A stretch of DNA of 44,138 nucleotides from Escherichia phage vB_EcoS_XY2: sequence record MN927226.1. The stretch is one strand, 5' to 3'. The position numbers were made by a program, and so were the translations under genes. The notes beneath the pieces are model-generated. The model was not told where the DNA came from. It saw nothing but the letters and a program-made list of their open reading frames with translations, and made no database searches. Below, one piece after another: positions 12,231 to 13,528 of this stretch (its first letter is position 1; every line of letters begins with the position of its first letter).

Positions 12231-12559
12231 CTAAAGAGGGCCGCATCCAGAAATACGCAAAAGAGCGATTCGAGGCCATTGGTGGCCTCGTTCGTAAACT
12301 TTCCTACGAAGGACGTTCAGGCGCTCCTGACCTGCTGGCAATTCTACCCGGCGGCATCGTCTGGTTCGTCGAGGTGAAGAAAGACGAAAACACTAAGCCA
12401 GACCCGCACCAGCTACGGGAACACGAGCGTATACGTAAACGTGGCGCAAATGTTTTTGTCGTTGGTTCGATAAAACAGATTGACACCCTAATAGCAGACT
12501 ATTATAGTAAGCACATACCCCAACAATATAAGGAATTTAGAAATGAAACACGAATATGA
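12227..12559 (+). CDS. VRR-NUC domain nuclease
   Basis: GAPDLLAILPGGIVWFVEVKK core read as VRR-NUC. Confidence 0.7.
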   Translation: MTKEGRIQKYAKERFEAIGGLVRKLSYEGRSGAPDLLAILPGGIVWFVEVKKDENTKPDPHQLREHERIRKRGANVFVVGSIKQIDTLIADYYSKHIPQQYKEFRNETRI

Positions 12560-12734
12560 CCGCAAACCAGCACGTGACATCGTACCAGGCGACATGATTT
12601 TCAACGTTAAGACCCGTCGTCCTGTTGCCGTTGATACGGTGTTCGTCGAGTCGAACGGTAAACTGGTTATTGAAGACGTAACCGGTAACGTTACGGCGTT
12701 CGGGCGTAAAGAGTTAGTTCTGGTGGCGAAATGA
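12543..12734 (+). CDS. hypothetical protein (63 aa)
   Basis: ORF track. Confidence 0.5.
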   Translation: MKHEYDRKPARDIVPGDMIFNVKTRRPVAVDTVFVESNGKLVIEDVTGNVTAFGRKELVLVAK

Positions 12735-13528
12735 ACTATTACAACGAATGGGATAAAGGCGCAGCCGCGTGGCTGCGTGAATTAATTAACAATAAACTAA
12801 TTCCTTACGGATATGTCGATGAACGATCAATCACCGAAGTCACCCCTTCAGACCTGGAAGGATTTACACAGTGTCACTTCTTTGCCGGAATCGGAGGGTG
12901 GCCCCTTGCACTCCAGCTGGCAGGAATACCAGAAAGCACTCGACTCTGGACAGGATCACCACCTTGCCAGCCGTTTAGCGTTGCCGGTAAGTCTCTCGGA
13001 TTTGACGACGATCGACACCTTGCCCCAGCATTTCTCAGGCTCATCAGAGAGTGCAAGCCTGAATTGCTGTTTGGAGAGCAGGTTGCAGCAGCAATTGGGA
13101 AGCACTGGCTCGATTTTGTATTCCTTAACCTGGAAGACAAAGGCTACGCCTGCGGGGCGTCAGTATTGCCAGCTTGCAGCGTCGGCTCTCCACAGGAAAG
13201 GAAAAGAATCATCTTTGGCGCGAGGATGGGCGACACCAACGGCGCGAGGATGGAAGGATTACGGGGATCTCAGCAAGACATTTTACAGAAAGGACGGAAA
13301 ATTCAGGAACGATACTCTTTATCGCCAGATGTGGCTTCATGTTTATGGGATTCATGGAAACCCAACCATGGAGCAGATAAGGAAACTAGAGTCATACCAG
13401 GCGGATTTTGCGAGGCAACTCATGGGGTATCCGCAAGAGTGGGACGATTGCGCGGTTACGGCAATGCCATCGTCCCGCAAGTAGCCGCTGAATTTATAAA
13501 GGCGTTCATGGGGGCAGTAAATGAGTAA
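12731..13528 (+). CDS. DNA cytosine-5 methyltransferase (compact; possibly frameshifted)
   Basis: FAGIGGW, SPPCQPFSVAGK, PQERKRIIFGAR, GNAIVPQV motifs in this frame; a GYP-type motif lies in overlapping frame. Confidence 0.65.
   Translation: MNYYNEWDKGAAAWLRELINNKLIPYGYVDERSITEVTPSDLEGFTQCHFFAGIGGWPLALQLAGIPESTRLWTGSPPCQPFSVAGKSLGFDDDRHLAPAFLRLIRECKPELLFGEQVAAAIGKHWLDFVFLNLEDKGYACGASVLPACSVGSPQERKRIIFGARMGDTNGARMEGLRGSQQDILQKGRKIQERYSLSPDVASCLWDSWKPNHGADKETRVIPGGFCEATHGVSARVGRLRGYGNAIVPQVAAEFIKAFMGAVNE

What the first reader, a model, noticed from the sequence alone, without database searches (positions are those of the whole stretch)
12731..13528. C5-cytosine methyltransferase with a fully open overlapping frame that carries a missing catalytic-domain motif
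Frame A (12731..13528) carries motifs I, IV, VIII and X (FAGIGGW, PCQ, QERKR, GNAIVPQV). A second frame is open across 12813..13484 (223 codons with no stop, unusual by chance) and near its 3' end encodes FARQLMGYPQEWD, which matches the GFP/GYP-type motif usually just upstream of motif X. A 13-bp direct repeat GGCGCGAGGATGG occurs twice around 13227-13265. Possibilities: a frameshifted or recently disrupted gene, sequencing indels, or a compact enzyme with a coincidental open frame.
Basis: partly seen in the sequence, partly recalled or inferred. Interest (0 to 1): 0.5.

Follow-up and report, generated by a model that had tools for sequence, protein, structure and literature searches.

The report
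Methyltransferase gene with nested second gene
This phage DNA cytosine methyltransferase gene carries a second gene read one base out of step along about 84% of its length. The arrangement is conserved and under selection in hundreds of phages and bacteria, and it most resembles the one known two-subunit enzyme of this type, M.EcoHK31I.

Summary
Frame A (12731-13528, 265 aa) and frame B (+1 frame, 12813-13484, 223 aa) are both open, and the 13-bp repeat is real.

The window is a Kagunavirus-like coliphage.

- **Conservation:** in 159 of 165 related loci found through frame B, frame A is one contiguous ORF. In 78 loci found through frame A, the +1 frame is open over a median 89% of the gene; the +2 frame reaches only 21%.
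- **Chance:** synonymous shuffles predict 7-9 stops in the window, and 0 of 300 shuffles were open.
- **Selection:** substitutions follow frame A at the 5' end and at motif X. They follow frame B in the variable middle, and both frames in two blocks.
- **Family size:** frame B proteins form a large family, 27,686 clusters, with no Pfam or NCBIfam model.

Best reading (confidence 0.6): a two-subunit C5 methyltransferase. Alpha (A) carries motifs I-VIII and X. Beta (B) starts at an internal ATG and carries the variable modules plus a motif IX-like helix, as in M.EcoHK31I. Subunit assembly and the motif IX assignment are inferred, not shown.

The parts
12731..13528 (+). Frame A CDS: the alpha polypeptide of a C5-cytosine DNA methyltransferase (265 aa). 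The start ATG overlaps the stop of the upstream 63-aa ORF (ATGA). The 3' end overlaps the helicase start at 13521.
   Evidence: ORF. PF00145 E=1e-21. hhalign of A 36-164 against M.HhaI 3-170, probability 98.6%. phrog_363 E=6e-75. At least 8000 homologues.
12813..13484 (+). Frame B ORF, +1 relative to A: the proposed beta polypeptide (223 aa), entirely nested in the alpha gene.
   Evidence: ORF. 309 homologues by word search. 27,686 representative clusters by profile search. phrog_1008. No Pfam or NCBIfam model.
12819..12821 (+). The ATG typical of the family for the frame B start. It is formed by gAT-Gaa of alpha codons D30-E31. A second in-frame ATG lies at 12813.
   Evidence: 205 of 207 genes have an ATG upstream of the B core, clustered at alpha positions 26-40. 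The D30 codon is GAT in 57% of genes, against 40% for all Asp codons. Shine-Dalgarno-like pairing is stronger than at control ATGs (median -5.8 vs -2.5 kcal/mol), but it is weak in the window itself at -3.3.
12813..13043 (+). Beta leader (residues 1-77). Its sequence is the out-of-frame 'shadow' of alpha motifs I-V. It is kept open but is not constrained at the amino-acid level.
   Evidence: Substitutions peak at alpha codon position 3, which is beta position 2: 0.47 vs 0.18 and 0.16. AlphaFold pLDDT is about 40 and the region is predicted disordered. This region is stop-free in frame B in 57 of 63 loci found through frame A, against 36 expected.
13044..13187 (+). Beta conserved core (residues 78-125: LNCCLESRLQQQL..YSLTWKTKATPAGRQYCQLAAS). 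It is dual-coded with alpha motifs VI-VIII.
   Evidence: Predicted helix 78-96 and hairpin 103-125, pLDDT 67-83. Mixed substitution phases of 0.22/0.15/0.30. Entropy at alpha synonymous sites falls from about 1.6 to 0.78-0.89 bits under Y.LTWK.K.TP.GR.
13227..13418 (+). Beta W-x-T-P-T module (GWATPTARGWKD) and a variable cassette. Positions 13245-13418 have no nucleotide homology to K1G or K-01. In alpha this stretch is a low-complexity linker.
   Evidence: The blastn gap runs 13245-13418 while the flanks are 78-91% identical. Family-wide, the middle region evolves as frame B coding: B3 0.39, B1 0.18, B2 0.11. The window against L088 and L172 gives 37 vs 18/14 and 44 vs 21/18 differences. Module number varies from 0 to 5 across the family.
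13401..13445 (+). Beta motif IX-like segment (ADFARQLMGYPQEWD). It is dual-coded with the alpha segment ...GGFCEATHGVSARVGRL.
   Evidence: The frame B profile aligns to M.HhaI 262-289, which is motif IX, at E=0.012-0.051. A chimera of B motif IX plus A motif X aligns best, at E=0.002. Alpha synonymous-site entropy here is 0.55-0.79 bits.
12881..12901 (+). Alpha motif I (FAGIGGW), the AdoMet-binding motif.
   Evidence: Invariant in alignment A2. Aligned with HhaI FAGLGGF.
12959..12979 (+). Alpha motif IV (PPCQPFS), containing the catalytic cysteine.
   Evidence: Invariant P78 and C79. Aligned with HhaI FPCQAFS.
13070..13084 (+). Alpha motif VI (FGEQV, an ENV-type motif).
   Evidence: Invariant G-E-Q-V. 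Aligned with HhaI FMENV.
13190..13207 (+). Alpha motif VIII (PQERKR).
   Evidence: Aligned with HhaI PQKRER.
13460..13483 (+). Alpha motif X (GNAIVPQV). The beta tail (VTAMPSSRK, then stop) is its out-of-frame shadow.
   Evidence: Invariant Y-G-N-A. Substitutions here follow frame A only: 0.06/0.10/0.40. Weak hhalign match to HhaI FGNSVVINV.
13217..13253 (+). Two copies of GGCGCGAGGATGG (13217-13229 and 13241-13253), 24 nt apart.
   Evidence: The copies are in phase and read 'ARGW' twice in beta. They are not a frameshift site.

Best explanation
The locus holds two genuine protein-coding genes on the same strand. The longer one (frame A, alpha) contains the shorter one (frame B, beta, +1 frame).

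Alpha is the large catalytic part of a C5-cytosine DNA methyltransferase. It has motifs I-VIII, then a sequence-unconstrained linker, then a conserved C-terminal segment with motif X.

Beta starts at an internal ATG about 85 nt into the alpha gene. It has four parts: a roughly 77-residue unconstrained, disordered leader; a conserved helix-hairpin core; one W-x-T-P-T module with an exchangeable cassette; and a motif IX-like helix.

I propose that alpha and beta assemble into the active enzyme. Beta would supply the variable, target-recognising small-domain elements that the alpha linker lacks. This is the layout shown experimentally for M.EcoHK31I.

What is shown here:
- both frames are conserved as open frames;
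- selection is frame-specific along the gene;
- the start region of frame B is conserved.

What is inferred:
- translation of beta;
- physical association of alpha and beta;
- beta's role in DNA recognition;
- anti-restriction as the biological purpose.
For: 1. Both frames are open in K1G, K-01 and a Rhodobacter phage, even though their middle cassettes differ.
2. Among 165 loci found through frame B, frame A is one contiguous ORF in 159. The mean probability of this for the middle region alone is 0.26.
3. Among loci found only through alpha motifs I and IV, the +1 frame is open over a median 89% of the gene. The +2 frame reaches 21%, with a maximum of 48%. Frame B is stop-free over about 245 codons in 55 of 63 of these genes, against 3.4 expected.
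4. Substitutions are frame-specific: A-type in the first 108 codons and at motif X, B-type in the middle, and mixed in two blocks. The window's own subtype shows the same pattern.
5. Synonymous-site conservation in alpha peaks exactly under beta's two conserved motifs.
6. In GC-rich genes, GC is highest at beta position 3 in the middle regions and at alpha position 3 elsewhere.
7. The beta start ATG is conserved in position and has a Shine-Dalgarno-like context. Called beta proteins start at the same profile position.
8. AlphaFold predicts a disordered leader and a structured C-terminal 145 residues for beta.
9. Beta's C-terminus aligns with M.HhaI motif IX, and a chimera of beta IX plus alpha X aligns best.
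10. There is an experimental precedent. M.EcoHK31I beta is encoded entirely in another frame of the alpha gene and both chains are required. Silently removing the beta start codons abolishes activity, and the N-terminal 40-67 residues of beta are partly dispensable (PMC2836561, PMC3404938).
Against: - No expression or biochemical data exist for this family.
- The motif IX match is weak: hhalign probability is 1-13% and E is 0.002-0.05. Pfam and PDB sequence searches do not see it.
- Alpha's own C-terminal segment is also conserved, and it too aligns weakly to HhaI motifs IX-X (E=0.07). Alpha might therefore be self-sufficient.
- The beta model matches no known fold, so its role as a target-recognition domain is unproven.
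- The alpha model failed (pLDDT 36).
- In the literature, M.EcoHK31I alpha is said to carry the TRD, unlike the arrangement proposed here.
- The Shine-Dalgarno-like sequence before the window's own beta ATG is weak.
- Homology to M.EcoHK31I could not be tested.
Confidence: 0.6

Rival explanations
1. Both genes are real, but beta is not a methyltransferase subunit. It would have an independent function, for example a regulator, a DNA-binding factor or an anti-defence protein, and is simply overprinted on the methyltransferase gene. Alpha alone would be the active enzyme.
For: Alpha keeps a conserved C-terminal segment that aligns weakly to HhaI motifs IX-X by itself. Beta has no detectable fold or family relationship to methyltransferase target-recognition domains.
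Against: Constraint is complementary: alpha is unconstrained exactly where beta is constrained. Beta carries the better motif IX match, and the beta IX plus alpha X chimera scores best. Nesting is strict across phyla. The M.EcoHK31I precedent points the other way (PMC2836561).
Confidence: 0.17
2. A single polypeptide is made by programmed frameshifting. Ribosomes would move from A to B by a +1 shift after motif VIII, and perhaps back from B to A by a -1 shift before motif X. This would rebuild a canonical enzyme with the order I-VIII, TRD, IX, X.
For: The A-B-A reading restores the canonical motif order, and the chimeric IX-X block aligns best to HhaI. The window has AAA-AGA at 13202-13207, a Lys codon that can re-pair in the +1 frame, followed by an Arg codon I recall as rare in E. 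coli (sequence).
Against: Frameshifting would not require frame B to be open upstream of the shift site or frame A to be open across the middle, yet both are conserved. No nucleotide motif is conserved at the boundary after motif VIII; entropy there is 0.8-1.6 bits at all three codon positions. AAA-AGA is not conserved: K1G has HKRERLFF and the family consensus is HIRQRLY. A conserved ATG with a Shine-Dalgarno-like context argues for independent initiation. In M.EcoHK31I, removing the beta start codons abolishes activity (PMC2836561).
Confidence: 0.1
3. Only frame A is functional. The frame B ORF would be a by-product of composition, a recently broken gene or an assembly error, which are the reader's alternatives.
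For: The leader region alone has a moderate chance of being open, about 0.4-0.56 per locus.
Against: 0 of 300 synonymous shuffles were open in the window. 55 of 63 loci found through frame A are open, against 3.4 expected. The +2-frame control behaves as chance predicts. The middle region shows B-type purifying selection. The arrangement recurs in independent isolates.
Confidence: 0.02

Closest known systems
M.EcoHK31I alpha/beta (a C5 methyltransferase of a type II R-M system, target YGGCCR; Lee et al. 1995, as described in PMC2836561 and PMC3404938)
   Same: Beta is encoded entirely inside the alpha gene in another reading frame. [quoted passage not shown] Beta has its own internal start codons. 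The N-terminal tens of residues of beta are partly dispensable, which parallels the unconstrained 77-residue leader here.
   Different: This enzyme is an orphan in a phage replication module with no restriction enzyme nearby. The variable region evolves in the beta frame here, whereas the literature places the EcoHK31I TRD in alpha. Sequence homology was not tested because no EcoHK31I sequence was available.
M.AquI alpha/beta (a natural split C5 methyltransferase; PMC3404938)
   Same: A C5 methyltransferase built from two polypeptides, split within the variable region.
   Different: In M.AquI the small subunit carries motifs IX and X and is not nested in the large one. I recall adjacent, briefly overlapping ORFs. 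Here motif X stays in alpha and the overlap is nearly total.
Monomeric C5 methyltransferases such as M.HhaI (PF00145)
   Same: Alpha motifs I-VIII align with high confidence. The catalytic chemistry is presumably the same.
   Different: There is no end-to-end match; only profile positions 59-165 of 324 align. The small-domain and motif IX region is not in the alpha frame.
Lambda Rz/Rz1 spanin genes (from general knowledge)
   Same: A phage gene is fully embedded in the +1 frame of another on the same strand, and the two products act as one complex.
   Different: The proteins and function are unrelated. Rz1 is much shorter, about 60 codons, and covers a small part of Rz.

Membership tests
C5-cytosine DNA methyltransferase (PF00145), frame A | Motif I (FxGxG, AdoMet binding) and motif IV (PCQ, catalytic Cys) | tested here: met
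   FAGIGGW and PPCQPFS are invariant in alignment A2. They align to HhaI with probability 98.6%. PF00145 E=1e-21.
C5-cytosine DNA methyltransferase (PF00145), frame A | Motifs VI (ENV) and VIII (QxRxR) | tested here: met
   FGEQV and PQERKR align with HhaI FMENV and PQKRER.
C5-cytosine DNA methyltransferase (PF00145), frame A | Motifs IX and X in the same polypeptide, with an end-to-end profile match | tested here: not met
   Pfam covers only profile positions 59-165 of 324. TIGR00675 scores 63 bits, below its 100-bit cutoff. Motif X (GNAIVPQV) is present by eye and through a weak hhalign match. Motif IX in frame A is only a degenerate resemblance, E=0.07.
M.EcoHK31I-type nested alpha/beta C5 methyltransferase | The beta ORF lies entirely within the alpha gene in another reading frame | tested here: met
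   12813-13484 lies within 12731-13528 in the +1 frame. This is conserved in 159 of 165 loci and 70 of 78 loci.
M.EcoHK31I-type nested alpha/beta C5 methyltransferase | Alpha has motifs I-VIII and X; beta has motif IX | tested here: inconclusive
   The alpha motifs are met. The beta motif IX match is weak, E=0.012-0.051, and the chimera gives 0.002. Pfam and PDB sequence searches are negative.
M.EcoHK31I-type nested alpha/beta C5 methyltransferase | Beta is initiated independently at internal start codons | tested here: inconclusive
   An ATG is present in 205 of 207 genes, clustered at alpha codons 26-40, with an enriched Shine-Dalgarno-like context. There are no expression data.
M.EcoHK31I-type nested alpha/beta C5 methyltransferase | Both polypeptides are required and associate | not testable with these tools
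   This needs biochemistry or a multimer structure prediction.
M.EcoHK31I-type nested alpha/beta C5 methyltransferase | Sequence homology to M.EcoHK31I alpha and beta | not tested
   No EcoHK31I sequence was available. The primary paper is not held and the later paper has no supplement.
M.EcoHK31I-type nested alpha/beta C5 methyltransferase | Part of a restriction-modification pair | tested here: not met
   The neighbours are a VRR-NUC/Holliday junction resolvase, a 63-aa ORF and an SNF2-type helicase. This is an orphan phage methyltransferase.
M.AquI-type split methyltransferase | The small subunit carries motifs IX and X and is encoded downstream of the large subunit | tested here: not met
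   Motif X is in the alpha frame and beta is nested in alpha, not downstream.
Programmed ribosomal frameshift gene | A conserved slippery site at the frame junction, with the alternative frame open only downstream of it | tested here: not met
   No nucleotide motif is conserved at the boundary after motif VIII. Frame B is open from near the 5' end and frame A is open throughout.

The most novel reading that the evidence does not exclude
An entire, very large family of phage and prophage orphan C5 methyltransferases would be obligate heterodimers encoded by nested +1 overlapping genes that predate the divergence of bacterial phyla. The family has at least 8000 alpha proteins and about 27,700 beta clusters. 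It appears in Proteobacteria and Desulfovibrio genomes and in metagenome bins labelled Spirochaetes, Planctomycetes, Verrucomicrobia, Acidobacteria and Thermaceae. The target-recognition modules would be written in the embedded frame and swapped as cassettes that must stay open in two frames at once. If so, this would be one of the longest (about 0.7-1.3 kb), oldest and best-supported same-strand overlapping gene pairs in prokaryotic viruses. It would also mean that most database entries for these enzymes describe only half of the enzyme.
Probability: 0.5. Interest if true: 0.75.

Novelty: new variant of a known kind. Interest (0 to 1): 0.62.

Why it matters
- **Overlapping genes:** long same-strand overlapping genes in bacteria and phages are rare and often disputed. 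This one has unusually clean comparative evidence and an experimental precedent, so it could serve as a benchmark for methods that detect overlapping genes.
- **Annotation:** most records list only the alpha frame as a complete methyltransferase. The beta frame is listed as a hypothetical protein, "Mte8-like" or even "restriction enzyme", and has no Pfam or NCBIfam model despite about 27,700 clusters.
- **Function:** if beta carries the specificity modules, predicting or engineering the methylation specificity of these phage enzymes requires reading the second frame. The same applies to anti-restriction studies, phage therapy host range and split-methyltransferase tools.
- **Synthetic biology:** codon optimisation of the alpha gene would silently destroy beta.

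Tried and rejected
- **Pfam on an A-B-A chimera:** the score did not improve (77.5 vs 78 bits), and frame B fragments gave no hits.
- **PDB sequence searches:** neither the frame B profile nor the C-terminal fragments gave a methyltransferase hit.
- **Foldseek of the beta model against PDB:** nothing below E=0.4. The model has pTM 0.36, so this is inconclusive.
- **AlphaFold of alpha:** failed with pLDDT 36, probably because the alignment was too shallow (70-98% identity). No fold search was run on it.
- **Search for a single-chain relative:** I looked for a methyltransferase with the W-x-T-P-T modules and motif IX in frame with the catalytic domain. tblastn of phage genomes returned only dual-frame genes. 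Among the profile hits, P0344 carries what looks like an inserted HNH-type nuclease segment and P0297 reads through into the next gene; neither is such a fusion. P0039 and L056 are A-to-B fusions caused by a 1-nt shift that removes motifs VI-VIII, so they are probably pseudogenes or errors.
- **M.EcoHK31I primary paper and sequences:** not held.
- **Literature:** no paper describes this dual frame in phage methyltransferases. The only traces are the "Mte8-like protein" label in the K1G annotation (GenBank record) and in PMC5582158.
- **The 13-bp repeat as a slippage or indel site:** rejected, because the copies are in phase.
- **AAA-AGA at 13202-13207 as a +1 shift site:** not conserved, so not a family mechanism.
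Full report
**1. Observation**

The window holds an ATG-initiated ORF at 12731-13528 (frame A, 265 aa). A second ORF at 12813-13484 lies in the +1 frame (frame B, 223 aa).

Frame A carries methyltransferase motifs I (FAGIGGW), IV (PPCQPFS), VI (FGEQV), VIII (PQERKR) and X (GNAIVPQV). Pfam PF00145 matches only residues 67-169, which are profile positions 59-165 of 324. Frame B has no Pfam hit.

The 13-mer GGCGCGAGGATGG occurs at 13217 and 13241. The copies are 24 nt apart, so they are in phase. In frame B they read "ARGW" twice.

Synonymous-codon shuffles show the double openness is not compositional:
- Preserving the frame A protein gives 6.8 expected stops in the +1 frame, and 0 of 300 shuffles were open.
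- Preserving the frame B protein gives 9.0 expected stops in frame A, and 0 of 300 shuffles were open.

**2. Context**

The window is a Kagunavirus-like coliphage, 97.8% identical here to the BASEL phages Bas71 and Bas76.

The gene sits in the replication module. Upstream are a VRR-NUC/Holliday junction resolvase and a 63-aa ORF whose stop overlaps the frame A start (ATGA). Downstream is an SNF2-type helicase whose start overlaps the frame A end. No restriction enzyme gene is nearby.

In the type phage K1G both frames are annotated. ORF31 is a C-specific methylase, and ORF30 is "Mte8-like" in the GenBank record and "DNA methyltransferase" in RefSeq. Both frames are also open in K-01, although its middle region is longer and unrelated.

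**3. The two-frame layout is a family property**

Frame B has many homologues that gene callers predicted as proteins. They share this layout:
- a variable N-terminus;
- a core, LQSSLxSRL..GSTxYxLTWKxKxTPAGR..AS..RT;
- 0-5 "GWPTPTARDxKGG" modules;
- a C-terminus, GQLNPAHSRWLMGxPxEWDDCA.

I fetched 160 loci using frame B patterns. They include Gamma-, Alpha- and Betaproteobacteria and Desulfovibrio genomes, plus metagenome bins labelled Spirochaetes, Planctomycetes, Verrucomicrobia, Acidobacteria and Thermaceae, and IMG/VR contigs. These taxon labels come from MAG record titles and were not checked.

With the window and four phage loci this makes 165 loci. In 159 of them the frame A N-terminal domain and motif X lie in one uninterrupted ORF. 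Frame B is +1 to it and covers a median 89% of it.

To avoid ascertainment bias I also fetched 80 loci using only frame A motifs I and IV:
- 78 have a full-length frame A.
- The +1 frame is open over a median 89% of the gene, and over more than 80% in 70 of the 78.
- The +2 frame has a median longest open stretch of 21% and a maximum of 48%.
- Among the 63 unique genes, frame B is stop-free across about 245 codons in 55. Frame A synonymous shuffles predict 3.4.

Frame A's openness across the middle is likewise unexpected if only frame B were coding. The mean probability is 0.26 per locus for that region alone, yet frame A is contiguous in 159 of 165 loci.

**4. Which frame is under selection, and where**

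I compared 207 unique genes in 14,869 blastn pairs and counted substitutions by codon phase. The rates below are for pairs at 70-85% identity. A1, A2 and A3 are the three codon positions of frame A, and they correspond to frame B positions 3, 1 and 2.

| Region | A1 (=B3) | A2 (=B1) | A3 (=B2) | Reading |
|---|---|---|---|---|
| Codons 1-30, upstream of B | 0.16 | 0.12 | 0.54 | Frame A coding |
| Codons 31-108, motifs I-V (B leader) | 0.18 | 0.16 | 0.47 | Frame A coding; B leader not constrained |
| Motifs VI-VIII (B core) | 0.22 | 0.15 | 0.30 | Both frames |
| Variable middle | 0.39 | 0.18 | 0.11 | Frame B coding; A is the shadow |
| C-terminal block | 0.25 | 0.15 | 0.22 | Both frames |
| Motif X | 0.06 | 0.10 | 0.40 | Frame A coding |

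Other lines of evidence agree:
- Entropy at frame A synonymous sites falls from about 1.6 bits to 0.8 under "Y.LTWK.K.TP.GR" and to 0.55-0.79 under "LNPAHSRWLMG.P.EW".
- In GC-rich genes, GC is highest at A3 in the A-only regions and at A1 (=B3) in the middle regions.
- The window's own subtype behaves the same way against L088 and L172. In the middle and motif IX region the differences are 37 vs 18/14 and 44 vs 21/18, concentrated at B3. In the leader they concentrate at A3.

**5. Start of frame B**

205 of 207 genes have an in-frame ATG upstream of the B core. These cluster at frame A codons 26-40, often as gAT-Gaa of the conserved V-D-E-R-S-I. The window has this ATG at 12819 and another at 12813.

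The D30 codon is GAT in 57% of genes, against 40% for Asp codons overall.

The upstream sequence pairs with the anti-Shine-Dalgarno sequence better than control ATGs do: median -5.8 vs -2.5 kcal/mol, p=7e-22. That sequence is itself part of conserved frame A codons, and the window's own site is weak at -3.3.

In the profile search, called frame B proteins begin at the same profile positions.

No nucleotide motif is conserved at the boundary after motif VIII. There is therefore no family-wide slippery site.

**6. Structure and motif identity**

- AlphaFold on a 108-sequence frame B alignment predicts residues 1-77 as disordered (pLDDT about 40). It predicts a helix at 78-96, a hairpin at 103-125 and helices at 146-214 (pLDDT 67-88).
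- Foldseek against the PDB finds nothing significant.
- The frame A model failed with pLDDT 36.
- The frame A profile aligns to M.HhaI motifs I-VIII with 98.6% probability.
- The frame B C-terminus aligns to HhaI 262-289, which is motif IX, at E=0.012-0.051.
- Frame A's own C-terminal block aligns to HhaI 268-310 at E=0.07.
- A chimera of frame B's block plus frame A's motif X aligns best, at E=0.002.

All of these C-terminal matches are weak, so the motif IX assignment is an inference.

**7. Cassette exchange**

Relative to K1G and K-01, window positions 13245-13418 have no nucleotide homology, while the flanks are 78-91% identical. The three phages carry three different cassettes of 174, 198 and 318 nt. 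Each is open in both frames. This is what swapping of specificity modules would look like, under the added constraint of staying open in two frames.

**8. Comparison with what is known**

The literature describes two natural two-polypeptide C5 methyltransferases (PMC3404938).
- In M.AquI the small subunit carries motifs IX and X.
[quoted passage not shown] Alpha has motifs I-VIII, X and the TRD, beta has motif IX, and both chains are required. Silent removal of the beta start codons abolishes activity, and the N-terminal 40-67 residues of beta mainly contribute affinity (PMC2836561).

The window's gene matches the EcoHK31I architecture, including a partly dispensable beta leader. It differs in four ways:
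- it is an orphan phage enzyme;
- beta spans about 84% of alpha;
- the variable region evolves in the beta frame;
- alpha keeps a conserved, dual-coded C-terminal block.

Homology to EcoHK31I could not be tested.

I found no paper on this layout in phage methyltransferases. Databases treat frame B inconsistently:
- PHROGs has a separate family for it, phrog_1008.
- NCBIfam and Pfam have none.
- PGAP annotates only frame A in E. coli prophages.
- A profile search finds 27,686 representative clusters for frame B, and frame A has at least 8000 homologues.

**9. Verdict**

The finding is real and is not an artefact. It is a conserved nested gene pair, best explained as an alpha/beta split C5 methyltransferase of the EcoHK31I type (confidence 0.6).

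The rivals are an independent function for beta (0.17), frameshift fusion products (0.1) and chance or damage (0.02).

BASEL phenotyping reports Kagunavirus phages as highly sensitive to the tested R-M systems (PMC11990801). The enzyme's target and benefit therefore remain unknown.

Noticed in passing
window 12480-12508: A strong sigma-70-like promoter match, TTGACA-17-TATAGT (11 of 12), lies inside the 3' end of the VRR-NUC gene. It is just upstream of the 63-aa ORF, methyltransferase and helicase cluster. It may drive this tightly coupled operon.
   Followed up: no
window 12543-12734, 12731-12734 and 13521-13528: A conserved 63-aa ORF (phrog_4879, unknown function; nearly identical in K1G and K-01) ends in ATGA, which overlaps the methyltransferase start. 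The helicase start overlaps the methyltransferase end by 8 nt. This suggests translational coupling of three genes.
   Followed up: partly
P0344 (metagenomic frame B homologue, 547 aa): An insertion of roughly 190 residues lies between the beta leader and the beta core. By eye it resembles an HNH-type nuclease (CxxC...CxxC...N-V-R-I-V-C-W motifs). In the alpha frame this would fall between motifs V and VI. It could be a homing endonuclease or an intron-like insertion in a dual-coded gene.
   Followed up: no
P0039; L056 (Erwinia tracheiphila); L068, L071, L119, L152: A few loci break the two-frame rule. P0039 and L056 are 1-nt frame fusions that join the alpha N-terminus directly to the beta frame and lose motifs VI-VIII. 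In L068, L071, L119 and L152 the frame A N-terminal and C-terminal matches lie in different ORFs. All are probably decaying prophage genes or assembly errors.
   Followed up: partly
window 13202-13207: The sequence AAA-AGA lies in the alpha frame. The Lys codon could re-pair in the +1 frame, and it is followed by an Arg codon I recall as rare in E. coli. This would allow a low-level alpha-beta fusion in this phage only. It is not conserved in relatives.
   Followed up: partly
window 13401-13459 and family block R4: The same DNA encodes motif IX-like peptides in both frames. Alpha reads DGK.RPVEPG.FPLA.G.P and beta reads LNPAHSRWLMG.P.EW. Both align weakly to HhaI motif IX. A run of four G gives Gly in both frames (cat GGG Gta / atg GGG tat). 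How this arose and whether it matters is unexplained.
   Followed up: partly
L246 (E. coli EC6868 chromosome, P2-like prophage early region): A 70.7%-identical copy of the gene, spanning the position of the window's variable cassette, sits in a prophage. It lies between a DUF5405 gene and the replication endonuclease. PGAP annotates it as a single DNA cytosine methyltransferase. This suggests the gene moves between unrelated phage types.
   Followed up: no
window 1-44138: No tRNA or tmRNA genes are present in the whole window.
   Followed up: yes
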